From positions 1 through 64,000 of IMG/VR virus record IMGVR_UViG_3300028549_000365: a stretch of DNA of 64,000 nt. One strand, given 5' to 3'. The number at the start of each line of letters is the position of its first letter. The stretch's first letter is position 1. Made by a program: the position numbers and the translations under genes. This stretch comes from a virus (lineage: Duplodnaviria > Caudoviricetes). Of this stretch, positions 1 to 62,148 are shown one piece after another. Under the pieces are notes generated by a model. The model did not search any database. It was not told the origin of the DNA and saw only the letters and a program-made list of their open reading frames with translations.

Positions 1-660
1 AGATGGTACTACTGTATCTAAATCTACACCTGTAACTGTAAGTGGTATGTCTAACTGTGTTGGTATAGAGGCTGGTGCAGATCACACAGTGTTCCTACTA
101 GCAGATGGTACTGTTCAAGCAGTTGGTTATAATGACTTTGGTCAACTATCAGATGGTACTACTGTTAGTAAACCTATACCTGTAGCTGTAAGTGGTATAA
201 CTAACTGTATAGGTATAGAAGCTGGTTATGTTCATACAGTATTTCTACTATCAGACGGTACTGTTAAGTCAGTTGGTCGTAATAACTTTGGTCAACTAGG
301 AGATGGTACTACTGATAATAAATCTATACCTGTTACAGTAACTGGTATAACTAACTGTGTAGGTATAGCAGCTGGTTATTATCATACAGTATTCTTATTA
401 GAAGATGGTACTGTTCAAGCAGTTGGTTATAATGACTTTGGTCAACTAGGAGATGGTACTACTGTTGGTAAATCTACACCTGTACCTGTATCTGGTATAA
501 CTAACTGTGTAGGTATATCAGCTGGTTCATCCCACACAGTATTCCTACTATCAGACGGTACTGTTAAGTCAGTTGGTAATAATAACTTTGGTCAACTAGG
601 AGATGGTACTACTGTTGATAAATCTACACCTGTATTAGTAAGCGGTATAACTAACATAAA
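1..660 (+). repeat. 150-nt coding tandem repeat (RCC1 blades)
   Basis: His codon of HTVFLL at 83, 233, 383, 533 (exact 150-nt period). Confidence 0.95.
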
Positions 661-676
661 ACAATATAAATTATAA
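2..676 (+). CDS. RCC1/BLIP-II repeat beta-propeller protein (5'-truncated; probable receptor-binding protein)
   Basis: Frame is open from position 2 (DGTTVSKSTPVTVSGMSN...), so the true start lies upstream of the window. 50-aa repeats HTVFLLxDGTVxxVGxNxxGQLGDGTT...SGITNCIGIxAG are the RCC1 signature. Confidence 0.9.
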   Translation, partial: DGTTVSKSTPVTVSGMSNCVGIEAGADHTVFLLADGTVQAVGYNDFGQLSDGTTVSKPIPVAVSGITNCIGIEAGYVHTVFLLSDGTVKSVGRNNFGQLGDGTTDNKSIPVTVTGITNCVGIAAGYYHTVFLLEDGTVQAVGYNDFGQLGDGTTVGKSTPVPVSGITNCVGISAGSSHTVFLLSDGTVKSVGNNNFGQLGDGTTVDKSTPVLVSGITNIKQYKL

Positions 677-3384: not shown

Positions 3385-4788
3385 ATGACTTTACATCAGA
3401 ACTTATTAAATTTAGTTGCTAATATAGCAACAGCTATGAAAGGTAGAATCTCTACTACAGAAAAAGGTACCGTTAATGGTGTTGCTACACTAGATGACGC
3501 GGGTAAACTTACAGTTTCTCAATTACCAGCTACAGTTGCTACATTAGAAAATGGTAGAATACCAGCGGCACAATTACCTGGGTTTGTTGATGACGTCGTA
3601 GAAGTAGCTAGTAGATCTATTTTGTTTCCAGCTGAACCTGGAGTTCCACCAATTGGGCTAGCGGGTACAATATATATCACACTTGATGATGATAGAGAAT
3701 ATAGATGGACAGGTACTGCGTATCGAGAACTATCTAAAAATGAAGTAACTACTAAACAATTAACAAATGTATCTGATGTTACTAAAGCTGCTTCTGGTCT
3801 CGCACCTACAGCGTATGAAACAAACAGAACTTATAGAATTGGTGAGGTAGCGTATTGGGCAGATACAAATGAAACATTACAAGCTGTTCAAGATAATGTT
3901 ACAGCGGCACCATATTCTGCACCTCATACATCAGCTACGTCTACAGTGTTGATACCAGATGATACTGAATTAATGGGAAGCGGTAGATTGAAAATGAATG
4001 GTGTGTTTGTAGTATCTGACACAGAGGATATGTCTTATGATCAATTCATTGGTGTTATAAATGCATTTGGTGGTGGTACAGTGTATACAGCTGTACTTGT
4101 TAATCAAAAGATTGTTATTACAAGAAAAGACGGTGGTGTGTTAGATCTATTTGTGGATGACGGTGATAATACATTATTTGAATTAAGTAATGGTAGCTTT
4201 AATAGCCTGTACTGGAAAGTAGTTAAGACAGTGGACGCTGTTAACACTATGTTAGAAAATACAACAGATATATCTAAAGCTTACGCTGGGTTACCAGTTA
4301 GAGAGTTTAATCCAGGTCGTGTATATAAATTAGGTGAAGTTGCTTATTCTGCTAACACTACTAAATCGTATCAAACCATAGTAGATAACGTTACAACCAC
4401 TCCTTTAACAGCTCTACCTAATACTGTAATTACGGCATCTGTGTTGGTACCGGACGATACTGAATTAATGGACACTGGAAGTTTAAAACTAAATGGTGTT
4501 TTGGTTATTAGCGATACTAGATTCATGTCTTACAATCAATTCATTAGCGAAATAAATGCATTCGGTGGTGGTACAGTGTATACAGCTAGTATAGTTGATG
4601 GTGTTATATCTATCAAACGATTAGATAATGGTGTGTTAACTGAATTTGCTGAAGTAGGTTCTAATTTTGGATTTACTTTAAGCACTGGTACTATTGATGG
4701 TGCTAAATGGAAAGAAATTACACCTATTGGTGTTGTTGAAGACGACACTGATTTCGCGGCTTTATTCGCTGAGGCTATGTTAGCTTAA
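3385..4788 (+). CDS. fibre-like virion protein with internal 165-aa duplication
   Basis: N-terminal GTVNGVATLDDAGKLTVSQLP...LPGFVDDVVE motif typical of phage fibre proteins; PDDTELM...INAFGGGTVYTA occurs twice, 495 nt apart. Confidence 0.75.
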   Translation: MTLHQNLLNLVANIATAMKGRISTTEKGTVNGVATLDDAGKLTVSQLPATVATLENGRIPAAQLPGFVDDVVEVASRSILFPAEPGVPPIGLAGTIYITLDDDREYRWTGTAYRELSKNEVTTKQLTNVSDVTKAASGLAPTAYETNRTYRIGEVAYWADTNETLQAVQDNVTAAPYSAPHTSATSTVLIPDDTELMGSGRLKMNGVFVVSDTEDMSYDQFIGVINAFGGGTVYTAVLVNQKIVITRKDGGVLDLFVDDGDNTLFELSNGSFNSLYWKVVKTVDAVNTMLENTTDISKAYAGLPVREFNPGRVYKLGEVAYSANTTKSYQTIVDNVTTTPLTALPNTVITASVLVPDDTELMDTGSLKLNGVLVISDTRFMSYNQFISEINAFGGGTVYTASIVDGVISIKRLDNGVLTEFAEVGSNFGFTLSTGTIDGAKWKEITPIGVVEDDTDFAALFAEAMLA

Positions 4789-4886: not shown

Positions 4887-5861
4887 ATGACACACATAGA
4901 AAGATTAATAAACTTAGTTTCAAATATAGCTAACGAAATAAAAAACCGTATACATACAAACAAACTAGGTGTGGCGAATGGTGTTGCTACGTTAAATAAT
5001 TCTGGAAAGATACCTAACGCACAGCTAGATATAGTCGCACCAATAACTTTACCAGGTTATAGTTTAGGAGTTGAAGTATTGACAACAGAAAGATGGATAG
5101 ATGGTAAACCAATATATAGAAAAGTTGTTAGTGGTGTAATACCATCACCCGCAGCAGATATTACTATAGCATCTGGTTTAACTACTGAAGAATATTGTAC
5201 TATTGACGATTTCTATATGGAAACATCAACTGGAAGAACTGTTAGTGGAACATATAGTTATTATGCATCGACATCAGAAGAATTGCTAATTTACTATACA
5301 AAACCAACACATAATATTTCTGTATTTGTAAGTAATTCATACGCTCAGTACGCAGGTAGAACTATTTATATTATATTAAAATACACAAAAACAACTGATT
5401 CAGCTGCTTCACCAACGGCAGTAGTGGGATGTGGTGTGGTACAAACTGGAGATCATGCTAATAATATAGGTTTTACTAGTTCAGCAGGACTACAAGCTAC
5501 AACTGTAACAGGTGCTTTAGATGAATTAAATTATAATATTAAACTAAGAACACCTGTTTGTATGTGTAAATATGAAAATTCAATTGATGTAATTTATAGT
5601 GTTTTTGGTTTTACTGGTGTAGTTAAAGTAGCTGCAGGCGTAACTTCATTTTATTTCGATACGTCCAAGTATAGTGACGTTAATAAAATAATAATAGAGT
5701 GTTGTATTAGTATGAGTGATTATACATCAGTAACATATAGTTGTGGTGTGGTGAACTCAACTACAATGGTAACAGACGGGTACGTAAGGATTATAACACA
5801 ATCATCAGCTGGTACAAACGTAGCTACAGTTGTTTACGTAACAATGTATTATTTAAATTGA
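4887..5861 (+). CDS. fibre-like virion protein
   Basis: N-terminus paralogous to 3385..4788 (LxNLVxNIA...GVANGVATLxxxGKIPxAQL); contains YSLGVEVLTTERWIDGKPIYRKVV, a common phage tail-fibre motif. Confidence 0.75.
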   Translation: MTHIERLINLVSNIANEIKNRIHTNKLGVANGVATLNNSGKIPNAQLDIVAPITLPGYSLGVEVLTTERWIDGKPIYRKVVSGVIPSPAADITIASGLTTEEYCTIDDFYMETSTGRTVSGTYSYYASTSEELLIYYTKPTHNISVFVSNSYAQYAGRTIYIILKYTKTTDSAASPTAVVGCGVVQTGDHANNIGFTSSAGLQATTVTGALDELNYNIKLRTPVCMCKYENSIDVIYSVFGFTGVVKVAAGVTSFYFDTSKYSDVNKIIIECCISMSDYTSVTYSCGVVNSTTMVTDGYVRIITQSSAGTNVATVVYVTMYYLN

Positions 5862-5870
5862 TGATTATAG

Positions 5871-5905
5871 TATACACACACCAATTGGTGTGTGTATATT
5901 TTTTT
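5871..5905 (+). terminator. intrinsic terminator
   Basis: TATACACACACC-aatt-GGTGTGTGTATA followed by a T tract. Confidence 0.85.
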
Positions 5906-5943
5906 ATGTTGACTATTAATATGAATAAATAAAAGGAAATATC

Positions 5944-7338
5944 ATGCTATTTAAAAACAGATACAGTTTTTTATCCAACATGTGTTCGTTAGGACAGACT
6001 GTTAAGATAGGAGATATAGTTGTTAGAACAACTGAGAATTATTATCAAGCGATGAAATCATCTAATCCAGCTATAAGAGATTTTATAGCTCAACTTAACC
6101 CATATGAAGCTAAACGTATAGCTAGAGAAACTAAACAAAAAGAAGATTTTAATAATAACAAACTAACTATAATGAAAGATGCTATAGAAGTTAAGTTTAA
6201 CTTACCTGTATTTAAATTTTTATTATTAGCTACAAACAACACTAAGATAGTAGAAGATAACTATTGGAACGATACATATTGGGGTGTTTGTGAAGGTGTT
6301 GGTGAAAATAACTTAGGTAAACTTATTATGGAAAAGAGAGATAGTTTAAAGACTATAGCTGAAGTAAAATCAAAAATAAAAATAGGTAATATGTATCATA
6401 AAGATGTTATTGAGTATTACGATTATATATGCTTCACTAGTAATTCCACTCTTAATAAAGATAATGAATTAATCATGGGTGCTGGCACGGCTAAAGTTAT
6501 AAAAGACATGTATAATACATTACCAGCTTATTTTGGTAAAGAAGTTATTAAAGGTAACAATAGTTTAATAGTTAATAATGAGTTTAACATTATAGCGTTT
6601 AGAACTAAAGACAACTGGAAAGAAGATAGTAAAATAGAACTTATACAAGAATCTTTAGATAAACTAAGAAAGTTTGCTTTGAAGAATAAAGATAAACGAA
6701 TAGCGTTACCTGTACCAGGTGTTACTAATGGTAATCTTACAGAAGATGTTATTCTACCATTGTTAGCTAATTTACCTAAGAATGTAGATGTATGGTCTTT
6801 ACCTAAAACTAACTGTTACACAGGTATAGGTAGTAGAACATTACCAGAAGAGTATGGTGTTATAATCGATGAGTTAGCAGAGTTAGCTTATAAGTCTAAT
6901 ATAAGATTAAGAGGTGGCGGAGCTGATGGTTCGGATAATCGCTTTGAGAACAAAGCTTATGGTTTAAAAGAGATATATTTACCTTGGAAAGGGTTTAACG
7001 GTAACAAATCTTTGTTATATACACAATCTAATACAGCTGAAACATTTGCTTACTTTTTACATCCTGCGTTTGATAGACTCTCGGACCCCGTAAAGAAGCT
7101 TATGGCTAGAAACGTGTATCAAGTTATAGGTGGTGACTTAAGGACTCCTAGCGACTTTGTAGCGTGTTATACTAAGGATGGTTGTAACTCGCATAAAACA
7201 AGGACTTCAGCTACAGGTGGTACAGGGCAAGCTATATCGTTAGCTAGTTTAATAGGTGTACCAGTTTATAATGTTTTTAATAAAGAAGATTATGAGATGT
7301 TAAAATTACAATTAAAAAGTTTAGTAAAGGATGAGTGA
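5944..7338 (+). CDS. NADAR (YbiA-like) + DarG-like macrodomain + DprA/SLOG-like triple fusion
   Basis: aa 1-135: YSFLSN...TTENYYQAMK...EDNYWNDTYWG...GENNLGKLIM (NADAR). aa 144-285: TSN...MGAGTAK...IAFRTKDNWK...IALPVPGVTNGNL (macrodomain). aa 291-455: YTGIGSR...GGGADGSD...LPWKGFN...ARNVYQVIG...GGTGQAI (SLOG). Confidence 0.85.
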   Translation: MLFKNRYSFLSNMCSLGQTVKIGDIVVRTTENYYQAMKSSNPAIRDFIAQLNPYEAKRIARETKQKEDFNNNKLTIMKDAIEVKFNLPVFKFLLLATNNTKIVEDNYWNDTYWGVCEGVGENNLGKLIMEKRDSLKTIAEVKSKIKIGNMYHKDVIEYYDYICFTSNSTLNKDNELIMGAGTAKVIKDMYNTLPAYFGKEVIKGNNSLIVNNEFNIIAFRTKDNWKEDSKIELIQESLDKLRKFALKNKDKRIALPVPGVTNGNLTEDVILPLLANLPKNVDVWSLPKTNCYTGIGSRTLPEEYGVIIDELAELAYKSNIRLRGGGADGSDNRFENKAYGLKEIYLPWKGFNGNKSLLYTQSNTAETFAYFLHPAFDRLSDPVKKLMARNVYQVIGGDLRTPSDFVACYTKDGCNSHKTRTSATGGTGQAISLASLIGVPVYNVFNKEDYEMLKLQLKSLVKDE

Positions 7339-14808: not shown

Positions 14809-15500
14809 CATTGTTACACCACACACCATTAGCAATAATGGAAACGACAATCAACACATGTTGGGATACACACGATAAATGTGTACCTGGTGAAGTTAAC
14901 GTAGTTAAGATAGATAGGGTTGTAAATAAGTTTAAACACGCTAGTACATCAGAATGTGTTAGTTATAACTTTTACATTAAAGGTGTGAGCAGAGCACTCT
15001 TACAAGAATTGGCTAGACATAGATTAGCAAGTCCAAGTGTTAAATCAACTAGATACACGCTCAAAGAGCTTAAAGAAGAACCATCGTTTGGTAGTGTGAG
15101 TAGAGTAACTGACTCAGAGTTTATAAAATATCTTAATACACAATCAGCTCCTTACGTTAGATGGTGTTCTGAGCCTGATATTATTAGAGCTCAAAAGTAT
15201 TTAGTGTTCACAGGTATATTCTCTGTTGATGTTGCGTCTGTTAAAGCTTTAGAAAACTTAAGAGAAATTATTGTTTCTGGTGTATCTAATGATAAAGCTA
15301 AATTCTGTTTACCAGAATCGTATCGTACGGAATTATCATGGACTATCAACGCTAGAAGTTTAAAGAACTTTATTAAGCTTAGAACTGATAAAGGTGCGTT
15401 GTGGGAAATTAGAGAACTAGCGTATCGTATTTACGATATTATTCCAGAAGAACATAAGTTCTTATATTCAGAGGAGGTTTACAGTGGGGGTGACGAATAA
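14778..15500 (+). CDS. thyX: FAD-dependent thymidylate synthase
   Basis: SRALLQELARHRLASPSVKSTRY (ThyX RHRx7SxR motif) and WTINARSLKNFIKLR...ALWEIRELA. Confidence 0.95.
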   Translation: MEFINKRMEVTLLHHTPLAIMETTINTCWDTHDKCVPGEVNVVKIDRVVNKFKHASTSECVSYNFYIKGVSRALLQELARHRLASPSVKSTRYTLKELKEEPSFGSVSRVTDSEFIKYLNTQSAPYVRWCSEPDIIRAQKYLVFTGIFSVDVASVKALENLREIIVSGVSNDKAKFCLPESYRTELSWTINARSLKNFIKLRTDKGALWEIRELAYRIYDIIPEEHKFLYSEEVYSGGDE

Positions 15501-17202
15501 CACCGTAACTAAATTAGATGATTTAGAACTCATGGATAAATACGATATAACCTATGAACAATTGGATAACGTTAAACAAAGATTGTCTATAGGTAAATTT
15601 ACAGATGAATATACTGAAGTACAATATAATAAACTTATAGAAGCTTTAGAATCGTTTCATTCTGAAATACAAATTGGTGATTATCTTATACTTAAGAACT
15701 GGCGTTCCAATAAAAAAGATAATGTGTATAAAGTAAAAAGATTCGATACAGTTATGAATATTAAAATGTATATGTCAAGTAACGCTACTACAGAAGCAGC
15801 TAAACACGAACAAACAGTTGGTGTAGCTGAAACACATATTTTATACGTTGGTGCTGTGATGTCAACAAGTTCTTTAGCTAAATGTTTAGAGTTAAAAGAA
15901 GATGATATTAAAGATGCTGTAAGAACAGCTGGGTTTAGTAATAGAGTTTTTAAAGATTTAACTCTAAGAGATTATGATCTAGTGTTAGATATTGTTAACA
16001 TGCTTGAAACTAAGAAATTTCTAAAAGATCCTAAAGACGAAAAATATATTTCAGTTAGGGATATGGCGTTAGATTTACATATATCAGAGTCTACTATTAA
16101 ACAGTATATAGTTAGCGAAAAGATAATATCTAAGTTTTATACTAAGGTACCTTATAGTAGCTATGAAGCGTTTAAAGAACGAAATGTATTTAGTAAAAAT
16201 AGACAAATGTGTGTTAGCTGTGAAAGAGAGTATCCAGGTACATATATTAATTTTGATACTAAAACATGTAGATCATGTACTAAAGGTAAAAAGAAACCAG
16301 TAACTAAATCTGTTAGTGTAGTAGACGATGAAATGGCTGAAACGCTTATTGACGACTTAAAAGGAATATTTGAAGAGTCTGACAACGTAGATACTTCATA
16401 TGATGACGCAGTTAATATGGCTGTTTTAATGTATCCTTGTCAAACAGAAACTATCACCGAGGAGATGCAAGATAAGATTAATACAGTATCTGAATCTGTA
16501 CTTACGGAACATTATGCTGTGTTAGCCGATTCAGCCGCTAAAACACTGTTTGGTACTAGATATTCTGAAACTGTAGACGACTCACAACAAACTATTGATC
16601 TAGATTTCAATCCAAAAGATCTAGCTGAATTAGACACTACGTTACGATCTTTTATACCAACAGACACGCCTGTAGGTAAGATAATAGATACCGCTAGTAA
16701 AATAGATAACGGAGCTACTAGTGTAGAGCTTACAGATGCTCAAATAGGTAGGTTAATAGGAATACCTAATTATACCGATGAAGATGTTAAGTTACCTAGC
16801 GGGTTATCATACGACCAAGTAGAAGAACATATAACTGTACCAAAACACGATAACTTATGCGGTGAAATAGATATACCACCGTTGGGTGATGGTACAGTTT
16901 GGATTCCTGACACAACCAATTCTTTAACTTCTAGGCACGGACATATTGGAATTGATTCTGATGTCTATACAAGTGATAGAGTAAATGAAGAAACTGGTTT
17001 ATATTATGTTATGTACGAGGACGCAATTAGTGAAGAACGAACTACGTTATTAATAGGTAATGTTACGTTAGCTGAAGCTACAGAACACTGTAATTTGTTA
17101 TACGATATAAACGCGCACGGTAATAGTATTAAAAATGTTACGTTACTAAAAGCTATTTCTAAATTCGAGTTAGTTACTAGTATTAAGAAAACAGATTTAT
17201 AA
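15484..17202 (+). CDS. large hypothetical protein with Zn-ribbon and possible HTH
   Basis: CVSC...CRSC motif; SVRDMALDLHISESTIKQY is HTH-like; start codon uncertain. Confidence 0.65.
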   Translation: MGVTNNTVTKLDDLELMDKYDITYEQLDNVKQRLSIGKFTDEYTEVQYNKLIEALESFHSEIQIGDYLILKNWRSNKKDNVYKVKRFDTVMNIKMYMSSNATTEAAKHEQTVGVAETHILYVGAVMSTSSLAKCLELKEDDIKDAVRTAGFSNRVFKDLTLRDYDLVLDIVNMLETKKFLKDPKDEKYISVRDMALDLHISESTIKQYIVSEKIISKFYTKVPYSSYEAFKERNVFSKNRQMCVSCEREYPGTYINFDTKTCRSCTKGKKKPVTKSVSVVDDEMAETLIDDLKGIFEESDNVDTSYDDAVNMAVLMYPCQTETITEEMQDKINTVSESVLTEHYAVLADSAAKTLFGTRYSETVDDSQQTIDLDFNPKDLAELDTTLRSFIPTDTPVGKIIDTASKIDNGATSVELTDAQIGRLIGIPNYTDEDVKLPSGLSYDQVEEHITVPKHDNLCGEIDIPPLGDGTVWIPDTTNSLTSRHGHIGIDSDVYTSDRVNEETGLYYVMYEDAISEERTTLLIGNVTLAEATEHCNLLYDINAHGNSIKNVTLLKAISKFELVTSIKKTDL

Positions 17203-52746: not shown

Positions 52747-53229
52747 TTATTTTAAAATATTATTTTGTCTAATATACTCTAGTAATGAATTACATTCTAA
52801 ACTATGTATATAACCTTTTGTCTTATTGCGTAGATAATTAATAACGTACTTTGTTTTATGTGGAAGAAAGCAATTTGTACAATCGCAATGTACTTTAACA
52901 ACATTATTAATATCTGGATTCTCGTAGTATATATCTTTAAATTTAGAATTTATACCACATACGCTAGCTATACCGATTTTCTTATCAATAATAATATCAT
53001 TATTAATAATAAAGTGCGGGCATGCACAAAGTAAACAATTTAAATCATCTACATTATGACATTTTATATTGTCTTTGTATAAAGGACAGAAACTAGTTTC
53101 GTTAGTCTTCATATTTTCATAATCAAAATAACTAGCTATTTCTTCTGGTGTAGTAAACTTACTACCTAGTTTAGATAGTATACTGTTTACTTTCTCGTCA
53201 TGATCTTTTATCCACTCATCATATGTCAT
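52747..53229 (-). CDS. cysteine-rich small domain (zf-like) protein
   Basis: FCPLYKDNIKCHNVDDLNCLLCACPHF...CGINS...DCTNCFLPH; ATGA-coupled to nrdJ. Confidence 0.7.
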   Translation of the reverse strand: MTYDEWIKDHDEKVNSILSKLGSKFTTPEEIASYFDYENMKTNETSFCPLYKDNIKCHNVDDLNCLLCACPHFIINNDIIIDKKIGIASVCGINSKFKDIYYENPDINNVVKVHCDCTNCFLPHKTKYVINYLRNKTKGYIHSLECNSLLEYIRQNNILK

Positions 53230-56108
53230 ATTACAGGACAGCTACCACCGGTACACTCTAGTGATTCCATAACATTATCTTTACTATCTTTAATATTTGT
53301 TAACTTAACTGGTTTTACATTCTTAGCATAAGCTTCAAACACCTCTTTAGTAACAACTTCTTGCGGTAAGTACAAGTATCCTAAATCAGCTGCTGTTTTA
53401 GAAGGATCTGCTCTATATAAAAATGACACACCAACATAGTGTTCCCAGTTAGCTAATAACCAATCTACTATATCATCTACTTCATCTGGACTATAACTTA
53501 TAGTGTTAGATACGTTCTGTTGACACCAATGTACTTGGTACTTCTTATAACGTTCTAATTGTGTAATAGCAGACTCTAAGTTAACCTCTACAACATCTCC
53601 ATTATCTTTTACTACTTTATCAAACTCTACGTGTTCCCATTTGATAGGAAATTTAACAAGTGTGCCTTCATTAGGTTGCATAGGATTAGGAGTTACCTCA
53701 TATCCTGACGCTCTAAGAATAGGCAATATAGGATCATTTACACCAAAGTTAATGTTGTTGAATATGTATTTACCTAATGGTTTATGTACACCTTCTGTTG
53801 TCATCATTACTTTACTTAATGTACCAGACGGTTTTATTGTTGTTACATTCTTAGGTCTTTGTAAGCCTAACTCATCAGCCATACCGTAAGCACTATGAAT
53901 AGCAACACGTTTCATACTATCAAGATCGTATTCTGTTAAATCTTCTCTTTGAACAACACCAGTTATACCAACACCGCATAATCTTAAGAACTCATTATTA
54001 AGATGCCACGCTTCTTGTAACACACCATCTTTAAGATTAACACAAGTTTGTCTATAGTTAGCTCTAGCAGAAAGTTCTATTGCTCTATGCAGTCCTGTTG
54101 TATCCCCTCTAAACTTAGCTACATCAACTTCTACAAGATTACAGAAACCTTTATTAGGTAATAAGATTTCAACGCATGGGTTATTTGTTTTAAACCAAGG
54201 TGCTCTTTTCTTAGCTGTTTCACCATTAATAAAACCTGGTTCACTACCGCCAGCTTCTTCCATAATAGTAAATATCTTTCTAAGCTCTTCTCTAGAAGGT
54301 TTACTTTCAAATACTAAACTATTGTTACTTTGTGCTCGCTGTGGATTACCATTCCAATATTCTCTTTTAGCGGTACTAAACTCTTTCCATTCTGGTTGTC
54401 CGTATTCGAATAAAGCAATCTGTGCCGATCTTCTAGAAGACAGAATAGTTCCTAACCAATTCACTATATCTAATATATCCATTCTTGTAAGTAATTCACC
54501 AGCTCGTTTATTCATTATAGTAGCTATTGCAACATACGCAATACTTATAGCTTCATCACCAGATGATATCCAACCATATCCAGTTAATCTACTACCAGCT
54601 GGTCGTAACTCCGAGAAATCGAATACTAACTTTTCTGCATCGTATTTACCAGCTAATAACTTACCTATACTTTTAGACCAAGCTTCAGCTGAGTCACCTA
54701 CTTTAATAGTCCATACACCATCTACAAATGTTTCTACGTTATTAGGATTACCTCCTTTAGTAGTTCGTTTAGTTCGTATTACTTCTATGTCCTTGATAGG
54801 TTTAAAGAATCCGTTTAGTGTACCTATAACAGGTCTAAACCCTACTCCGCAACCTTGCATCAATAACCAAAGAACATCAACTACGTCATACACAGTTTCT
54901 ACATCTGTTCCAGAACAGTTTCCTGTTACTAAACCATTAGGTAATATAAAACTATGATCGTCTTCAACAGTAAGACACCAACATTCTTCTTTAGGTGTGT
55001 TCTTATTTATATCATTAATTCTAAATAAACTACCTCCGGTATTCTCCTGAAATGTTGTAAACCGAATAGTAAAACCGTCAAATACCCCGTAATTTGTTTC
55101 AGCTATTCTTCTTTCATATCTATTTATATATACACCAAAAACTGGCATCCATTTAACTATGTAATCAGCTGCTTGTTTACTGGTAGTATCAATTCCAATA
55201 ACTACATTAACTCCCTTTCTATGGGTCTTAGTTCCGTCCGCTGATAGATAACCTCTTAAAAAAGCTCTGTTGAGATTAATATTATCAGTTTCAGGTAAAG
55301 TTTTTAAATATTTACCTGTATATACAAATGGGTCTTCATTACAACTAGGTGGAAATGAATATTTAAACCCGCATGATATAAATTTATCTAAATGTTGTTT
55401 TTTATTACCACATAATCTAACACGCGAAGTTACACTTTCACCGCTCACAGCTATAGCACCATCACCATACACAAACCCATAACACCACCAATATTGTTCC
55501 TCAGTTGTCATACCATAGAAATCATAATGATTGAAATCATCAGAAGGTGGTCTATGCATTTTCATATCTAGCTTTATGTCTTTAGCTAAAACTTTATTAC
55601 CGTTAGACTCTATCCAGGTGTGATCTAAACAACTATTAACGCTGTACTGTGTAATACCTCTAGTTAAACCTAATTTAACCATATTTCTATTTCCTGCATA
55701 CATGACCTTAGCTTTTTTCCAGTTACCTAAATGTGTTCTTACTATACATTCATCACCATCTTCAAAGTCTTCAAATGACATAACGCCTTTATTAGTTATA
55801 AACTTAGTATCTCTTTGTAATGGATTAAATTGTGAAGCTTCTCTTGTTTTAGCGATATCAGTACCACCTAGCCAAAGTGTTCTTCCTGAAGTAGAAACTT
55901 TCTTATCCACCATAAGTTGTTTAAATTCATTAAGCTCTTCTACCATATCAACAGTACAATGTTCTATTTTAGCAGCTCTTAACCATAACCATTCTTGATG
56001 GGTTCTTACTCTTTCACATATCTCTTCCCAAGTCTCAAAACTAGTCTCGTTTATATCTTTAGGTCTTGAGTATGTTCTTCTTATTACTACTTCACTTCGT
56101 GTATTCAT
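53226..56108 (-). CDS. nrdJ: class II (adenosylcobalamin-dependent) ribonucleoside-triphosphate reductase, intein-containing
   Basis: SGRTLWLGG...SQFN|CS, GCGVGF, TNNPCVEILL...CNLVE (thiyl-radical Cys), TTIKPSGT, C-terminal CTGGSCPV. Confidence 0.93.
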   Translation of the reverse strand: MNTRSEVVIRRTYSRPKDINETSFETWEEICERVRTHQEWLWLRAAKIEHCTVDMVEELNEFKQLMVDKKVSTSGRTLWLGGTDIAKTREASQFNPLQRDTKFITNKGVMSFEDFEDGDECIVRTHLGNWKKAKVMYAGNRNMVKLGLTRGITQYSVNSCLDHTWIESNGNKVLAKDIKLDMKMHRPPSDDFNHYDFYGMTTEEQYWWCYGFVYGDGAIAVSGESVTSRVRLCGNKKQHLDKFISCGFKYSFPPSCNEDPFVYTGKYLKTLPETDNINLNRAFLRGYLSADGTKTHRKGVNVVIGIDTTSKQAADYIVKWMPVFGVYINRYERRIAETNYGVFDGFTIRFTTFQENTGGSLFRINDINKNTPKEECWCLTVEDDHSFILPNGLVTGNCSGTDVETVYDVVDVLWLLMQGCGVGFRPVIGTLNGFFKPIKDIEVIRTKRTTKGGNPNNVETFVDGVWTIKVGDSAEAWSKSIGKLLAGKYDAEKLVFDFSELRPAGSRLTGYGWISSGDEAISIAYVAIATIMNKRAGELLTRMDILDIVNWLGTILSSRRSAQIALFEYGQPEWKEFSTAKREYWNGNPQRAQSNNSLVFESKPSREELRKIFTIMEEAGGSEPGFINGETAKKRAPWFKTNNPCVEILLPNKGFCNLVEVDVAKFRGDTTGLHRAIELSARANYRQTCVNLKDGVLQEAWHLNNEFLRLCGVGITGVVQREDLTEYDLDSMKRVAIHSAYGMADELGLQRPKNVTTIKPSGTLSKVMMTTEGVHKPLGKYIFNNINFGVNDPILPILRASGYEVTPNPMQPNEGTLVKFPIKWEHVEFDKVVKDNGDVVEVNLESAITQLERYKKYQVHWCQQNVSNTISYSPDEVDDIVDWLLANWEHYVGVSFLYRADPSKTAADLGYLYLPQEVVTKEVFEAYAKNVKPVKLTNIKDSKDNVMESLECTGGSCPVI
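54918..55823 (-). mobile_element. 302-aa intein with LAGLIDADG homing endonuclease (class 3 signature)
   Basis: Interrupts SQFN|CSG; begins PLQRDTKFIT, ends WCLTVEDDHSFILPNGLVTGN; LAGLIDADG blocks YGFVYGDG and LRGYLSADG. Confidence 0.9.
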
Positions 56109-57681: not shown

Positions 57682-59226
57682 TTAAAAATCAAAATCTTTA
57701 GCTATTTTACTACCTATGTCATCTAACGCTTCTTGTGTTTCGCCAGCTTTAGGATTGTTACCCCCTACATAATCTTCTAATATAGGAGCACTAGGTGGGA
57801 ATGGTAACACACATCTTTTATCTTCTTCAGATATAATCTTAGGATTACGATGTTTACCTCTACCTACAAACAGATTCCATTTTCTATTTATAGTTCCTTT
57901 AAATAAATATATCTCACCATCAACAACTTGTGGTATTTGTTTAGAACCCTCATAATAGTTATTGTTAGATATCTCATCCAAGAACTCTTTATTTTTTATT
58001 CCAGACCTAGTTAACCCTACAGCTTCTGTAGATAACTGGTGTGGTGTCAATGTTAAGAAGCGATGACTCGAACCAAAGTTTCTAAGCTTATTAAACAAGT
58101 CTCTTATATCAGTACCCATAGCTCCAGTTTTAATACATCCAGTAGTAGGCATTTTACTTAGGTAATCTACAACTAACGCATGTATTTCGAAACCATCTGC
58201 TTCGTATTCTAACAGCTTGTTAAATAAATGTTTATAACTCCATTCATCAGGGTTAACTCTTAGTATTTTAACATGGTATCCAGTCTTAGTAAGTCTACTA
58301 GTAATATACTCACCTATCTCTTTACCTGTCAATAACGTTAAATCTGGTAATACATGATTTTCGTTATAGTACAAATACTTATAGATAAATCCTGTCATAA
58401 TATGCATATCATCTTCGAATGATAATAATATGTTAAGAGGTTTCTTAGTAGGATCGTCCATGATAGGTTTATTAAGAGTAGATATCTGTGTAAACATACT
58501 TTGTACGAACCCTGATTTAAAACTATGTTGTAAAGCAGTTATTACCCATTCTTCACCTCTAATGAAACCACCACCTGTCATAGTGTTAACACCAGTCCAA
58601 CCTGTTATCAATCTACCGTTATCAGTCCCTAACTTCTTAACCTCATCCATAGCGTCAGCTACACCATCTGGGTTATTCATATCAAGTTCATTCATAATAC
58701 CAGGATCTTTAGACTTAGCAACTATACTTAATGCTTCTAGGTTAACAACTAAAGCATTTGTAAAATCACTTAGACTCATGTCACCTAGTTGGTTTTGATT
58801 AAGTTTATAAGAAGCACTACCTACTATCTTTTTTAGTTGTTGTAATCTAAAATAGTTATTAAGTGTATTTCTTAAACTAACTATAGTTCTCTTAAGATCT
58901 TTAGTTTGCAATTCTATATTTATAGCTTTATCCACTGTTCTTATTAACGATTCTCTATCTTTTAATATAACCTCTAAACTTTGTATTAAAGTTAACTTAT
59001 CATAGTTCTCATGGTTTTGCACCATGTCCCTAATAAGTTGTATAAGATCTTTTACTAACTCACTATCTCCACCAAATAACGCGTTATCTTTTTCTCCTTC
59101 AATACCATCTAGTATTGTCTTTACTAAATCTTTACTCGTATCACTAGTAGTGTTAGTCATTAATTCTAGTTCTGTTTCTCTGTGTAATAATGTTATAATC
59201 TTTAATATTATATCTAGTTTTGACAT
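57682..59226 (-). CDS. dnaB: DnaB-like replicative helicase (phiKZ gp118-like)
   Basis: ITGWTGVNTMTGGGFIRGE, degenerate Walker A ALQHSFKS, LSFED, VVDYL, TPHQLS, GRGKHR. Confidence 0.85.
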   Translation of the reverse strand: MSKLDIILKIITLLHRETELELMTNTTSDTSKDLVKTILDGIEGEKDNALFGGDSELVKDLIQLIRDMVQNHENYDKLTLIQSLEVILKDRESLIRTVDKAINIELQTKDLKRTIVSLRNTLNNYFRLQQLKKIVGSASYKLNQNQLGDMSLSDFTNALVVNLEALSIVAKSKDPGIMNELDMNNPDGVADAMDEVKKLGTDNGRLITGWTGVNTMTGGGFIRGEEWVITALQHSFKSGFVQSMFTQISTLNKPIMDDPTKKPLNILLSFEDDMHIMTGFIYKYLYYNENHVLPDLTLLTGKEIGEYITSRLTKTGYHVKILRVNPDEWSYKHLFNKLLEYEADGFEIHALVVDYLSKMPTTGCIKTGAMGTDIRDLFNKLRNFGSSHRFLTLTPHQLSTEAVGLTRSGIKNKEFLDEISNNNYYEGSKQIPQVVDGEIYLFKGTINRKWNLFVGRGKHRNPKIISEEDKRCVLPFPPSAPILEDYVGGNNPKAGETQEALDDIGSKIAKDFDF

Positions 59227-59982: not shown

Positions 59983-62148
59983 ATGGCAGGACAAAAAAAA
60001 TTAATTGGTTCGCTATTATCTAGCTTACAATCAAACATTGGTAAAGATGGTCTAAACAATAGACAAGAGATAACAGCGTACACTATGTCGTCAGAATCAT
60101 TGGATCAAATTTCTAAAGATTCAGCTGTTGCATCTAGAGATCTTTTAGAAGCAACTATCGATAGAACTATCGGACTTTTAATAGGTACTGAAGAATTCAA
60201 AGGTGTTAAATTCTCTGTTGCACAATTAACTGCTGCTAAATCAATTGCTGCTTTAGCTATAGACCCACAAACAGGATTAAACTCGTTAAAAGCATTGAAA
60301 GACCCTAGTGTATCAGGTGATTCAATTAGCGTCAGCGCTGAGCAATTTGTAGGTGATACAATTATTGACGCATCTACACTTTCTGTTGAAACTTTTGATG
60401 GGCAAGCTGCATCTAATGCACTATACCTTTCAATTGCTACAACATTGCTATCTACTACTCAAGATACATTCGGAGAAGCATTCTGGCCAACAATGGTTAT
60501 TGACCCTATGGTTAGTGGTATTGCTATTGAAACTGAATTCACATCGTTGTTTACAACTTTCGAAAGAAGTAGATCAGGTACTCAAGATAAAAAGAAATTT
60601 AACAAACAATCACTTGTAAAAGTTATTTACGATAATGATCTTTTTACAGCTGATAGAAATAAAGTTGTTGTAGTTAAAGCTCCTGAAAATGAAAATTCAT
60701 TAATGGCTGGTTATACATATATTGATAAAACTGCTGGTGTCGAAATTGAAACTGCTCCATTACTATTCGGTAAAAATGTTTCTCTTTTAGGTCTTTCTCA
60801 AACTGATGCATTATTAGCTAAAGGTGTTATGGACGAAACTGATACATTAGATAGAACTATTAACCTTGACAGAGTATTCTATACATTATCACATGTAGAT
60901 AACGGTAACACTGTTAACGAAATATTTAGTTTTGATGCATCGTTGTTCCCATATAGTAACTTTACTTCTTCTGTACAACAACATGCGAAAGATTTCACAT
61001 TATCATTTGAAACTGAATCAGTTATCATTAACACATCTGCTACTAAAACTGTTTTAGGTGAAGTTTCTGGTGCTTTAGATGGTCTTGCTGATAACCATTC
61101 TATTAGATTAGAGTTCAAATTATCTGGTAAAGCTAACGCTGCATATGGTGATGTTGAAGTATTCGGAAATGCAATTAACTTAGTAGAAGTTATTGATGCT
61201 GCTGGTAATAAATTAGCTACTACAAGTGCTACTTATATCGCAATCAAAGCTGTTATTGATACTATTAAATTCGGTGGTTATACACTTGAAGCTTATAGAA
61301 CTAACAGTAACTTAAGAACTGCTGGAGATATGATTACATCTGATAGATACTCACAAGTTTATGCTGTACCACTTAGAACTGGTGTAACTGTTACTACTCC
61401 TATTAACAATGTTTTAGGAACAGATAACGATAGTAAATTAACTTCACAAATCCAAATGATTGGTATGAGAGTTAGTAAACACGCTGTTCAAGAACTTGTT
61501 AAAACTGCTGAAGTACTTAAAAGTGTTACAATCAGTGGAGTAAGCAATGTAGAACTTATGGGAATCGGAAGATTCTTCGTAGATACATTCTATCAAGAAT
61601 CATCAATTGATCTTGCTAACTATGTTGATAGTATCTCTTCTAACCAAAGAGCGGAAGATATTAAAGCAGCTCTAGTTAACAAAGTTAAAGATGAAGTTCT
61701 TAAAATGTACTTGCTTTCTAACTATGGTATTGCATTCGAAGCACTTAACCAAGGTTTAGGTAAAAAGATTACAGTTGTTATCGGTACTAACCCAAGATTA
61801 AGACAATACTTAACTGCAGGTGATGGTATCATCAACATCGGTGATGATTTTGAAGTTAAAGTAGTTAGTACACCTAACAAACTTATCTCTGATAAAATGT
61901 ATATCACTTTCTGTATCTTCGACGAAGATAGAAATGTTAAACCAAACCCACTTAACTTCGGTCAATGTGTATGGGCTCCAACAATTACTTATGATGTAAA
62001 CAGAACAGTTAACAACTCAACAGTAAGAGCTATTCATACTATGCCAAGATATGCACATATTCTTAACTTGCCAATTATGTCAGTTATCAATGTAAGCGAC
62101 ATCGAAGGTGTATTAGGAAAAGTAAAAGTTTATACTCACGAAGCATAA
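59983..62148 (+). CDS. major capsid protein (phiKZ gp120-like)
   Basis: 721 aa, highly biased codon usage, propeptide with S-x-E sites (MSSESL, LSVETFDG), FGEAFWPTMVIDP, C-terminal PRYAHILNLPI; syntenic with DnaB and nvRNAP. Confidence 0.85.
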   Translation: MAGQKKLIGSLLSSLQSNIGKDGLNNRQEITAYTMSSESLDQISKDSAVASRDLLEATIDRTIGLLIGTEEFKGVKFSVAQLTAAKSIAALAIDPQTGLNSLKALKDPSVSGDSISVSAEQFVGDTIIDASTLSVETFDGQAASNALYLSIATTLLSTTQDTFGEAFWPTMVIDPMVSGIAIETEFTSLFTTFERSRSGTQDKKKFNKQSLVKVIYDNDLFTADRNKVVVVKAPENENSLMAGYTYIDKTAGVEIETAPLLFGKNVSLLGLSQTDALLAKGVMDETDTLDRTINLDRVFYTLSHVDNGNTVNEIFSFDASLFPYSNFTSSVQQHAKDFTLSFETESVIINTSATKTVLGEVSGALDGLADNHSIRLEFKLSGKANAAYGDVEVFGNAINLVEVIDAAGNKLATTSATYIAIKAVIDTIKFGGYTLEAYRTNSNLRTAGDMITSDRYSQVYAVPLRTGVTVTTPINNVLGTDNDSKLTSQIQMIGMRVSKHAVQELVKTAEVLKSVTISGVSNVELMGIGRFFVDTFYQESSIDLANYVDSISSNQRAEDIKAALVNKVKDEVLKMYLLSNYGIAFEALNQGLGKKITVVIGTNPRLRQYLTAGDGIINIGDDFEVKVVSTPNKLISDKMYITFCIFDEDRNVKPNPLNFGQCVWAPTITYDVNRTVNNSTVRAIHTMPRYAHILNLPIMSVINVSDIEGVLGKVKVYTHEA

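What the first reader, a model, noticed from the sequence alone, without database searches (positions are those of the whole stretch)
5944..7338. NADAR + DarG-like macrodomain + SLOG in one polypeptide: candidate broad anti-ADP-ribosylation counter-defence
Seen: three consecutive domains with catalytic-looking motifs intact (NADAR TENYYQAMK and WNDTYWG; macrodomain IAFRTKDNW, equivalent to DarG NFPTKxHW with its catalytic Lys; SLOG TGIGSR, GGADGSD, ARN, GGTGQA). Known: NADARs remove guanine ADP-ribose added by DarT1, DarG macrodomains remove thymidine ADP-ribose added by DarT2, and SLOG and macro domains are the signal sensors of Thoeris ThsA effectors. Inference: one early protein that could reverse both DarTG1 and DarTG2 marks on phage DNA and perhaps bind or degrade NAD-derived immune signals. 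It is the first gene of the early region. I do not recall this three-domain fusion being characterised.
Basis: partly seen in the sequence, partly recalled or inferred. Interest (0 to 1): 0.8.

Follow-up and report, generated by a model that had tools for sequence, protein, structure and literature searches.

The report
Three-domain ADP-ribose eraser, jumbo phage
A nucleus-forming jumbo phage from a microbial mat encodes one protein that joins two enzymes known to strip ADP-ribose from DNA (a NADAR and a DarG-like macrodomain) to a DprA-like DNA-binding module, most likely to undo bacterial DarT-type attacks on its DNA; the parts are known and the combination has been noted in computational surveys, but it has not been tested.

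Summary
ORF 5944-7338 (+) encodes 464 aa with three confidently modelled domains (pLDDT 92, pTM 0.89). These are a NADAR (Pfam, above cut-off), a macrodomain whose closest solved relatives by sequence and fold are DarG antitoxins followed by TARG1, and a SLOG domain closest to the DprA Rossmann fold. All quoted motifs are present, and the catalytic equivalents are invariant or nearly invariant across the 17 aligned full-length sequences.

New context: the genome is a PhiKZ-like chimallivirus, with chimallin and a PhiKZ-type capsid protein. The macrodomain is homologous to PhiKZ AdfM, an experimentally shown anti-DarT2 enzyme. Diverse phage NADARs (AdfN) are experimentally shown to be anti-DarT1. 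The phage has no DarT, so the protein is an orphan antitoxin-like enzyme.

The SLOG carries both published DprA ssDNA-binding signature motifs and lacks the LOG catalytic Glu. I therefore read it as an ssDNA-docking module rather than a Thoeris-type sensor; this is inference.

SLOG/Macro/NADAR fusions in DNA viruses were already described computationally (Iyer et al. 2022), with a small-molecule reading. Verdict: a real, plausible dual anti-DarT counter-defence enzyme and a new variant of a known kind. Interest is moderate and function is untested.

The parts
5869..5900 (+). Terminator-like hairpin (14 bp stem) followed by a T-run. It separates the upstream tail-fibre-like gene (4887-5861) from the target gene.
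   Evidence: 8 terminator-like sites in the region against 0.9 expected; sequence
5933..5937 (+). AAGGA Shine-Dalgarno-like sequence 6 nt upstream of the ATG
   Evidence: read directly
5944..7338 (+). CDS, 464 aa plus stop: NADAR, DarG/AdfM-like macrodomain and DprA-like SLOG in one polypeptide
   Evidence: AF2 model pLDDT 92, pTM 0.89
5944..6372 (+). NADAR domain (aa 1-143), YbiA-type. E31, K38, E104, D110 and W113 correspond to P. nicotianae NADAR E43, K50, E125, D130 and W133.
   Evidence: Pfam; YbiA 2b3w alignment; Foldseek 2b3w TMt 0.69 and 8bau; residue roles from PMC11543638; conservation
6373..6807 (+). DarG/TARG1-type macrodomain (aa 144-288). K222 corresponds to TaqDarG K80 (catalytic), T221 to T79, W225 to W83, and N262/G263 to N120/G121.
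   Evidence: family profile against DarG, E 4.8e-9 and 6.6e-8; TARG1 1.6e-3; AdfM homology; residue roles from PMC5179494
6808..7335 (+). SLOG domain of the DprA-like clade (aa 289-464). G296-S297-R298 and L386-x-x-R389-N390 match the two DprA ssDNA-binding signature motifs. There is no LOG-type Glu (S432 at that position).
   Evidence: PHROG 768; VIA Z 13.6/13.0/12.5 to DprA structures; motif census; motif definition PMC3950713
7335..8093 (+). Downstream ORF (252 aa, GTG start overlapping the stop codon by 4 nt). No family match; possibly co-transcribed; function unknown.

Best explanation
The gene encodes an orphan, antitoxin-like DNA de-ADP-ribosylating enzyme of a PhiKZ-like nucleus-forming jumbo phage. 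Bacterial DarT-type toxins attach ADP-ribose to guanine (DarT1) or thymine (DarT2) in single-stranded DNA and so block phage replication and packaging. Here the N-terminal NADAR would hydrolyse guanine-linked ADP-ribose, as AdfN and DarG1 do. The central macrodomain would hydrolyse thymine-linked ADP-ribose using Lys222, as DarG2 and PhiKZ AdfM do. The C-terminal DprA-like SLOG would dock the enzyme on ssDNA through the conserved GSR loop and LxxRN helix, which in DprA form a base-accepting pocket, concentrating both erasers on the only substrate DarT enzymes modify. Shown here: domain identities, intact catalytic and binding motifs, a compact three-domain model, orphan status, the chimallivirus setting, and recurrent fusion of the three domains in every order. 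Inferred: actual substrates, the ssDNA-docking role of the SLOG, early expression, and import into the phage nucleus.
For: Domain identities. NADAR: the catalytic set E31/K38/E104 and the ADPr-binding D110/W113 are conserved (E31, K38, D110 invariant; E104 in at least 90%) across the 17 aligned full-length sequences (roles from PMC11543638). Every NADAR subtype tested hydrolyses G-ADPr DNA (PMC11125620), and divergent phage NADARs rescue phage from DarTG1 (PMC11825919). Macrodomain: the best sequence and fold matches among solved structures are DarG, then TARG1. K222 (= K80) is invariant. It is homologous to PhiKZ AdfM (BLASTP 3e-9; hhalign 97.9%), which removes DarT2 marks and protects a chimallivirus (PMC13309987). 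Genome: it is a chimallivirus, with a chimallin homologue and PhiKZ_MCP at E 3e-124. A second contig carrying the same fusion also has chimallin. Orphan status: no DarT in the 222-kb record. SLOG: DprA is the top fold match. Both DprA ssDNA-binding motifs are present in 196 and 201 of 208 related SLOG domains, and the LOG Glu is absent. The alignment ranges place the motifs on HpDprA residues 50-52 and 140-144 (PMC3950713). The same SLOG is fused elsewhere to AlkB-like dioxygenase, PolB exonuclease, DHH/DHHA1 and a PIF1-like helicase, all nucleic-acid enzymes. Rosetta-stone linkage: the three domains occur in all pairwise and several triple orders.
Against: There is no biochemical or genetic test of this protein or of any SLOG of this clade. 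The host is unknown (microbial-mat metagenome), so it is unknown whether it carries DarT systems. NADAR rescue in vivo is toxin-specific even when in vitro activity is shared (PMC11125620). The NADAR is YbiA-type (Glu), the subfamily that also contains housekeeping riboflavin-intermediate N-glycosidases. TaqDarG G119 is replaced by Thr261, and the equivalent of N22 could not be placed with certainty. The SLOG also keeps invariant or near-invariant D331, E335, E343, H373, Q393, D412 and N443, more polar conservation than simple DNA docking needs. Its net charge is not consistently basic across the family (pI 5.3-9.3). HpDprA needs a dimer to bind ssDNA well. Iyer et al. 2022 interpret the same fusions as processing small ADPr-derived signals.
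Confidence: 0.5

Rival explanations
1. Small-molecule reading (Iyer, Burroughs, Anantharaman, Aravind 2022). The three domains divide the labour of destroying or sequestering diffusible NAD-derived immune signals or toxins, such as cADPR isomers from Thoeris TIR proteins, ADPr-1''P and ADPr>P. The SLOG acts as a sensor or N-glycosidase, the macrodomain acts on ribose-linked moieties, and the NADAR acts on N-glycosidic bonds.
For: The published comparative-genomic argument (PMC9503650). SLOG domains bind 3'cADPR in ThsA, and ThsA SLOG is a detectable fold neighbour (Z 9.2). Related fusions include DUF4326 and canonical Macro domains, which are predicted phosphate and ADPr processors. The SLOG pocket has many conserved polar residues.
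Against: The macrodomain belongs to the DarG/TARG1 Lys-type clade and is homologous to AdfM, whose shown substrate is DNA. All NADARs tested act on G-ADPr DNA. The SLOG carries the DprA ssDNA motifs and not the LOG catalytic Glu. It is also fused to AlkB, helicase and exonuclease domains.
Confidence: 0.22
2. The protein reverses ADP-ribosylation of RNA or of other nucleobases (mRNA, tRNA or rRNA adducts, cytidine- or uracil-linked ADPr) rather than DarT marks on DNA, countering RNA-targeting ART defences.
For: NADARs also reverse cytidine ADP-ribosylation, and macrodomains reverse RNA ADP-ribosylation; this rests only on the titles and abstracts listed (PMC12945103, PMC11833690, PMC13036486), which were not read in full. 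DprA-type pockets accept single-stranded nucleic acid without sequence specificity (PMC3950713).
Against: The closest characterised relatives of the macrodomain (DarG, AdfM) are DNA-thymidine specific. A chimallivirus keeps its DNA in a nucleus where AdfM acts, whereas RNA defences would act in the cytoplasm. No RNA-repair genes (ligase RtcB, KptA, 2H) were seen next to the gene.
Confidence: 0.12
3. Phage-internal or housekeeping use. The protein reverses ADP-ribosylation written by the phage's own transferases, or clears reactive riboflavin or NAD breakdown intermediates (the YbiA-type N-glycosidase role).
For: The NADAR has the YbiA-subfamily Glu (E104). Some phage homologues are annotated next to NUDIX or 'GTP cyclohydrolase II' genes.
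Against: No Nudix, canonical Macro or DarT gene is present in this genome. Fusion to a DarG-type macrodomain and a DprA-like domain has no rationale in riboflavin metabolism. No cellular protein with the three-domain arrangement appeared in AFDB clusters. Phage ART genes were not searched for here.
Confidence: 0.06

Closest known systems
AdfM (PhiKZ gp104), the chimallivirus DarG2-like macrodomain anti-DarT factor (Morgan et al., Cell Rep 2026, PMC13309987)
   Same: DarG-type macrodomain with the FxTKDNW Lys motif and the P-x-G-x-x-N-G-x-L loop. Detectable homology (BLASTP 3e-9, 29% identity over 104 aa; hhalign 97.9%). Encoded by a nucleus-forming jumbo phage, with no DarT partner.
   Different: AdfM is a stand-alone 162-aa protein. 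Here the domain sits between a NADAR and a DprA-like SLOG in a 464-aa protein. Activity and nuclear import are untested here.
AdfN (T4 gp30.3 and the divergent AdfN of Bas32 and Bas60), phage orphan NADAR anti-DarTG1 enzymes (PMC11825919)
   Same: Orphan phage NADAR domain with conserved Glu and Lys catalytic residues. The predicted activity is removal of guanine-linked ADP-ribose from DNA.
   Different: T4-type phage NADARs have His at the subfamily-defining position, whereas this one has Glu (YbiA-type). It is also fused rather than free-standing.
DarG antitoxins of DarTG2 (T. aquaticus and M. tuberculosis; PDB 5M31, 5M3E, 5M3I)
   Same: Best sequence and fold match of the middle domain. The equivalents of catalytic K80 and of T79, W83, N120 and G121 are conserved.
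   Different: There is no DarT-binding C-terminal domain and no adjacent DarT. G119 is Thr here. It scores far below the NCBIfam equivalog cut-off (42 against 250 bits).
DprA/Smf DNA_processg_A Rossmann domain (HpDprA 4LJK/4LJR; PMC3950713)
   Same: Top fold match (Z 13.6, 139 aligned residues). Both ssDNA-binding signature motifs (G-S/T/A-R and F/L/Y-x-x-R-N/D) are present and near-invariant. It lacks the LOG PGGxGTxxE Glu.
   Different: No Pfam PF02481 hit for this protein; only weak sub-threshold hits in relatives. No SAM or winged-helix partner domains and no known RecA-loading role. Dimerisation is unknown. It has extra conserved His, Asp and Glu residues.
Viral SLOG-Macro-NADAR(-DUF4326) ADPr-processing architectures catalogued by Iyer et al. 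2022 (PMC9503650, section 3.7.4, Fig. 5h)
   Same: The same three superfamilies, fused or neighbouring, in large DNA phages, and enriched in jumbo phages.
   Different: That work predicts small-molecule ADPr-derivative processing and does not report experiments. The figure itself is not held here, so I could not check whether this exact NADAR, DarG-type macro, DprA-like SLOG order is drawn.

Membership tests
NADAR superfamily (PF08719) | Match to the family HMM above the curated cut-off | tested here: met
   62.8 bits against a 35.1 cut-off, aa 6-136
NADAR superfamily (PF08719) | YbiA fold | tested here: met
   Foldseek: 2b3w YbiA TMt 0.69, rmsd 2.4; 8bau NADAR-ADPr
NADAR superfamily (PF08719) | Catalytic Glu and Lys (PnNADAR E43, K50), the subfamily-defining acidic or His residue (E125), and ADPr-binding D130 and W133 | tested here: met
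   E31, K38, E104 (Glu, so YbiA-type), D110 and W113, by alignment to YbiA and the spacing given in PMC11543638. E31, K38 and D110 are invariant and E104 is at least 90% conserved across the 17 aligned full-length sequences.
NADAR superfamily (PF08719) | Hydrolysis of guanine-linked ADP-ribose on DNA | not testable with these tools
   Needs an enzyme assay
DarG/TARG1-type macrodomain (AdfM-like) | Macrodomain fold closest to DarG/TARG1 | tested here: met
   Foldseek ranks 2-5 are DarG (TMt 0.73-0.75) and ranks 6-11 are TARG1. The family profile hits DarG at 4.8e-9 and 6.6e-8 and TARG1 at 1.6e-3.
DarG/TARG1-type macrodomain (AdfM-like) | Catalytic lysine equivalent to TaqDarG K80 / TARG1 K84 | tested here: met
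   K222 in FRTKDNW aligns to the FPTKKHW Lys. It is invariant across the 17 aligned full-length sequences. The role of K80 is from PMC5179494.
DarG/TARG1-type macrodomain (AdfM-like) | ADPr-binding loop G117-x-G119-N120-G121 and N22 | tested here: inconclusive
   G259, N262 and G263 are conserved, but G119 is Thr261. The N22 equivalent is ambiguous: N174 is not invariant, while N167 is invariant but offset.
DarG antitoxin proper (NF048014 equivalog) | Full-length DarG with a DarT-binding C-terminal domain and an adjacent darT | tested here: not met
   42 bits against a 250-bit cut-off, with only profile positions 57-133 of 338 matched. No DarT (PF14487) in the genome. It is therefore DarG-like, not a DarG.
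SLOG superfamily, DprA-like clade | SLOG Rossmannoid fold | tested here: met
   VIA-align: DprA Z 13.6, 13.0 and 12.5; TM1055 12.5; MCP 11.9; ShosA 11.3; LOG 9.4-11.3; ThsA SLOG 9.2. PHROG 768 at E 1e-46.
SLOG superfamily, DprA-like clade | DprA ssDNA-binding signature motifs G-S/T/A-R and F/L/Y-x-x-R-N/D (Wang et al. 2014) | tested here: met
   G296-S297-R298 and L386-M-A-R389-N390. They are present in 196 and 201 of 208 related SLOG domains. The alignment ranges place them on HpDprA 50-52 and 140-144. No residue-level superposition was printed.
SLOG superfamily, DprA-like clade | Match to Pfam DNA_processg_A (PF02481) above cut-off | tested here: not met
   No Pfam hit for aa 286-464 even at E 10. 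Relatives give only sub-threshold or marginal hits. It is therefore DprA-like, not a DprA orthologue.
SLOG superfamily, DprA-like clade | ssDNA binding | not testable with these tools
   Needs EMSA, MST or a structure
LOG-type nucleotide N-glycosidase | PGGxGTxxE motif with the catalytic Glu | tested here: not met
   The sequence is TGGTGQAIS, with Ser432 at the Glu position. Glu occurs at 431-433 in only 3 of 208 relatives.
ThsA-type SLOG signal sensor (Thoeris) | Closest fold and sequence relation to ThsA SLOG, with cADPR-binding residues | tested here: inconclusive
   ThsA SLOG is a fold neighbour (Z 9.2 and 8.5) but ranks below DprA, LOG, MCP and YpsA. Binding residues were not mapped.
Chimallivirus (nucleus-forming jumbo phage) gene | The genome encodes chimallin and a PhiKZ-type major capsid protein | tested here: met
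   PhiKZ gp54 homologue within a 627-aa open frame that holds a 622-aa ORF, E 4.8e-9. PF25620 PhiKZ_MCP at E 3e-124.

The most novel reading that the evidence does not exclude
The very abundant phage 'DprA-like' SLOG family (PHROG 768; thousands of members) would be a portable ssDNA-docking, base-pocket module. Phages would fuse it to different base-adduct erasers and DNA-end processors: NADAR for G-ADPr, DarG-type macro for T-ADPr, AlkB-like dioxygenase for alkyl adducts, plus exonucleases and helicases. This protein would then be a single nucleus-imported enzyme that scans replicating ssDNA and removes both kinds of DarT mark. That would define a modular viral 'DNA adduct repair' toolkit, rather than the small-molecule signal-processing network currently proposed.
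Probability: 0.3. Interest if true: 0.7.

Novelty: new variant of a known kind. Interest (0 to 1): 0.5.

Why it matters
DarTG systems are a widespread anti-phage defence. The two known enzymatic counter-measures, AdfN and AdfM, were each found as single-domain proteins. A natural fusion of both, conserved across 17 aligned full-length sequences spanning about ten 50%-identity clusters, argues that phages face G- and T-directed DNA ADP-ribosylation together. It also offers a compact broad-spectrum eraser for study.

The third domain is the more useful lead. The DprA-like SLOG is one of the commonest unexplained phage domains. The finding that it keeps both DprA ssDNA-binding signatures, and is repeatedly fused to nucleic-acid repair enzymes, turns a vague 'ADPr sensor' annotation into a directly testable hypothesis.

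In a chimallivirus it also bears on how DNA-repair-type counter-defences are delivered into the phage nucleus.

Tried and rejected
1. A near-identical DNA search in GenBank phages found no match. A protein search found no phage record covering at least 80% of the protein in one place.

2. Pfam on the isolated macro and SLOG segments gave nothing even at E 10. Identification rested on NCBIfam, PHROGs, PDB profiles and folds.

3. The SLOG family profile against PDB sequences gave only two spurious hits. Only fold comparison links it to DprA.

4. Promoter analysis led nowhere. Sigma-70-like sites are no more frequent than in shuffles. An AT-rich 9-mer enriched in intergenic regions is not above chance in the window and is absent upstream of the gene. 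The 'early gene' claim was left untested.

5. No RNA runs hold the sequence. The only holder is the source microbial-mat metagenome.

6. Domain pI as a proxy for DNA binding was uninformative (SLOG pI 5.3-9.3 across the family).

7. A toxin-antitoxin reading (phage-borne DarTG) was rejected, because there is no DarT in the genome.

8. A LOG-type N-glycosidase reading of the SLOG was rejected on the missing Glu.

9. The neighbours of three homologues showed no conserved partner gene, only nucleotide-metabolism genes (thymidylate kinase, NAD-dependent ligase) nearby.

10. Model coordinates are not exposed, so the relative placement of the three active sites could not be examined despite pTM 0.89.
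Full report
OBSERVATION

The window carries one uninterrupted ORF at 5944-7338 (+), 464 aa. A terminator-like hairpin with a T-run (5869-5900) and an AAGGA ribosome-binding site precede it.

Pfam recognises a NADAR domain at aa 6-136, above its curated cut-off (62.8 against 35.1 bits). PHROGs splits the protein into three families: phrog_1017 (aa 3-143), phrog_335 'phosphatase' (aa 175-308) and phrog_768 'DprA-like' (aa 289-462, E 1e-46). NCBIfam adds a partial hit to the DarG antitoxin model (aa 204-276, E 6e-11, far below the equivalog cut-off).

An AlphaFold2 model built on 17 full-length sequences is confident throughout (pLDDT 92, pTM 0.89). This suggests a compact arrangement of the three domains rather than beads on a string.

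WHAT THE DOMAINS ARE

(i) NADAR. The best PDB sequence and fold hit is E. coli YbiA (E 1e-10; TMt 0.69), and the P. nicotianae NADAR-ADPr complex is also matched. I used the residue roles given by Schuller et al. 2023 (PMC11543638) to map the active site:
- E31 and K38 correspond to the catalytic E43 and K50.
- E104 corresponds to the subfamily-defining E125. Glu at this position marks the YbiA type; DarT1-linked NADARs have Asp and T4-type phage NADARs have His.
- D110 and W113 correspond to the ADPr-binding D130 and W133.
E31, K38 and D110 are invariant and E104 is at least 90% conserved across the 17 aligned full-length sequences.

(ii) Macrodomain. A profile of the family's middle domain hits M. 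tuberculosis and T. aquaticus DarG macrodomains at 4.8e-9 and 6.6e-8, Thermosipho DarTG at 5.9e-6 and TARG1 at about 1.6e-3. Foldseek gives the same order. The FRTKDNW motif aligns with DarG FPTKKHW. This makes K222 the equivalent of the catalytic K80, T221 of T79 and W225 of W83; N262 and G263 match N120 and G121 (residue roles from PMC5179494). G119 is Thr261 here, and the N22 equivalent could not be fixed.

(iii) SLOG. A separate model of aa 286-464 (pLDDT 92) was aligned to 48,161 PDB representatives. DprA Rossmann domains come first (Z 13.6, 13.0, 12.5). Next come TM1055, the Moco carrier protein, ShosA, LOG proteins and YpsA. ThsA SLOG bound to 3'cADPR scores Z 9.2. The domain is a SLOG of the DprA-like clade.

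Wang et al. 2014 (PMC3950713) defined two signature motifs that form the ssDNA-binding, base-accepting pocket of DprA:
- G-S/T/A-R (HpDprA 50-52).
- F/L/Y-x-x-R-N/D (HpDprA 140-144).
They contrast these with the LOG signature PGGxGTxxE. Here the motifs are G296-S297-R298 and L386-M-A-R389-N390. The VIA alignment range (model 2-178 to chain 41-220) puts them exactly on HpDprA 50-52 and 140-144. Among 208 SLOG domains of the collected homologues the two motifs occur in 196 and 201, while a Glu at the LOG position occurs in 3.

GENOMIC SETTING

The window is bases 1-64000 of a 222-kb IMG/VR virus record, estimated 83% complete, from a microbial-mat metagenome.

An earlier first-stage note on this genome mentioned chmA, and I tested that lead. 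PhiKZ chimallin gp54 finds a homologue at 132 kb within a 627-aa open frame that holds a 622-aa ORF, E 4.8e-9. The window itself encodes a PhiKZ-type major capsid protein (PF25620, E 3e-124) next to a divergent DnaB, as in PhiKZ. The phage is therefore a chimallivirus.

PhiKZ gp104 (AdfM) is the experimentally shown anti-DarT2 macrodomain that is imported into the phage nucleus (PMC13309987). The middle domain here is homologous to it (BLASTP 3e-9, 29% identity; hhalign 97.9%).

The genome has no DarT, no canonical Macro and no Nudix gene, so the protein is orphan. A second, degenerate SLOG paralogue lies beside an RNA polymerase beta-subunit gene.

The only other IMG/VR contig with the full fusion also encodes chimallin (E 4.9e-86) and shares several genes with this phage.

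DISTRIBUTION AND FUSIONS

The word-index search recovered 17 full-length three-domain proteins, including this one (38-61% identity). The exhaustive representative search found about ten 50%-identity clusters with the architecture, among 14,969 hits that are mostly SLOG-only.

A census of 218 collected proteins with my three domain HMMs gave:
- 24 NADAR-macro-SLOG
- 23 NADAR-SLOG
- 9 SLOG-NADAR
- 5 macro-SLOG
- 4 SLOG-macro
- 4 NADAR-macro
- 3 macro-NADAR-SLOG
- 138 SLOG alone or with other partners

Other partners of the same SLOG are an AlkB-like 2OG-Fe(II) oxygenase, the PolB exonuclease domain, DHH/DHHA1, a PIF1-like helicase, DUF4326 and canonical Macro.

No GenBank phage has the three domains in one ORF. 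Neither AFDB fold clusters nor BFVD returned a protein with the same arrangement; two-domain macro-SLOG entries exist.

The neighbourhoods of three homologues show no conserved partner gene.

MECHANISM

Established knowledge is as follows. DarT1 and DarT2 ADP-ribosylate G and T in ssDNA. NADAR and DarG macrodomains reverse these marks, each being base-specific. Phage AdfN and AdfM do so as orphan antitoxins (PMC11543638, PMC5179494, PMC11825919, PMC13309987).

Given intact active sites of both types in one polypeptide of a chimallivirus, the most economical reading is a dual eraser of DNA ADP-ribosylation. I add the inference that the DprA-like SLOG docks the enzyme on ssDNA. This rests on the two DprA motifs, the fold ranking, the missing LOG Glu, and the company the domain keeps (AlkB, helicase and exonuclease fusions).

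Several points count against this inference. The SLOG pocket has further conserved His, Asp and Glu residues. Its charge is not consistently basic. DprA binds ssDNA as a dimer. The published interpretation of these fusions is small-molecule ADPr processing (PMC9503650). I give the overall explanation 0.5, with the catalytic part more secure than the SLOG part.

NOVELTY

Each catalytic module is a known kind of phage counter-defence. Combinations of SLOG, Macro and NADAR in DNA viruses were catalogued in 2022, and tandem NADAR-Macro proteins were noted there.

Three things appear not to be described. I found no characterised example of this architecture: a YbiA-type NADAR, an AdfM/DarG-type macrodomain and a DprA-signature SLOG. 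I found no report of its association with chimalliviruses. I found no DprA-motif argument for the SLOG. This is based on only three literature searches plus targeted reading.

I rate the finding a new variant of a known kind, with interest 0.5.

Noticed in passing
window 53226-56108 (-): A 960-aa class II (B12-dependent) ribonucleotide reductase interrupted by an insertion of about 300 aa carrying a LAGLIDADG domain (aa 279-336). tblastn to phage RNRs covers only 69% of it, in 2-3 pieces, so an intein is likely.
   Followed up: partly
window 59983-62148 (+) and 57682-59226 (-): A PhiKZ-type major capsid protein (PF25620, E 3e-124) lies beside a divergent DnaB-like helicase (PF20307, E 4.5e-89). 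This is the same neighbourhood as PhiKZ gp118-gp120 and marks the phage as PhiKZ-like.
   Followed up: yes
G000:C1:131173-133041 (outside the window; L008:565-2433): A 622-aa chimallin (ChmA) homologue, 24% identical to PhiKZ gp54 over aa 317-590 and 34% identical to the homologue in IMG/VR contig G001.
   Followed up: yes
G000:C1:145571-146293 (L003:1282-2004): A second, divergent SLOG paralogue (240 aa; PHROG 768 E 1e-16; hhalign 99.1% to the SLOG family). It lies directly after an RNA polymerase beta-subunit gene. It keeps LLARN but has lost the GGAxGxD and TGGTG glycine loops, so it may be a degenerate, binding-only copy.
   Followed up: partly
window 47-676, 972-2717, 3385-4788, 4887-5861 (+): A run of tail-fibre-like genes upstream of the target. 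Two carry RCC1-repeat regions (PHROG 16766/7220), and two share a similar N-terminal 'minor tail' segment, which suggests alternative receptor-binding proteins.
   Followed up: no
L006:12209-13594 (contig of homologue P0013): A 461-aa protein with a Pfam PF25187 'Acb3' hit lies about 5.6 kb from the three-domain homologue. It may be another counter-defence gene in the same phage region.
   Followed up: no
P0006-P0008, P0012, P0013 (metagenomic homologues): Some three-domain homologues carry an extra N-terminal domain of about 145 aa and/or a C-terminal extension of about 75 aa. Neither has a Pfam match and their function is unknown.
   Followed up: partly
window 15484-17202 (+): A 572-aa ORF with a NUMOD1 domain (homing-endonuclease-associated DNA-binding module), one of several signs of mobile endonucleases in this genome.
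   Followed up: no
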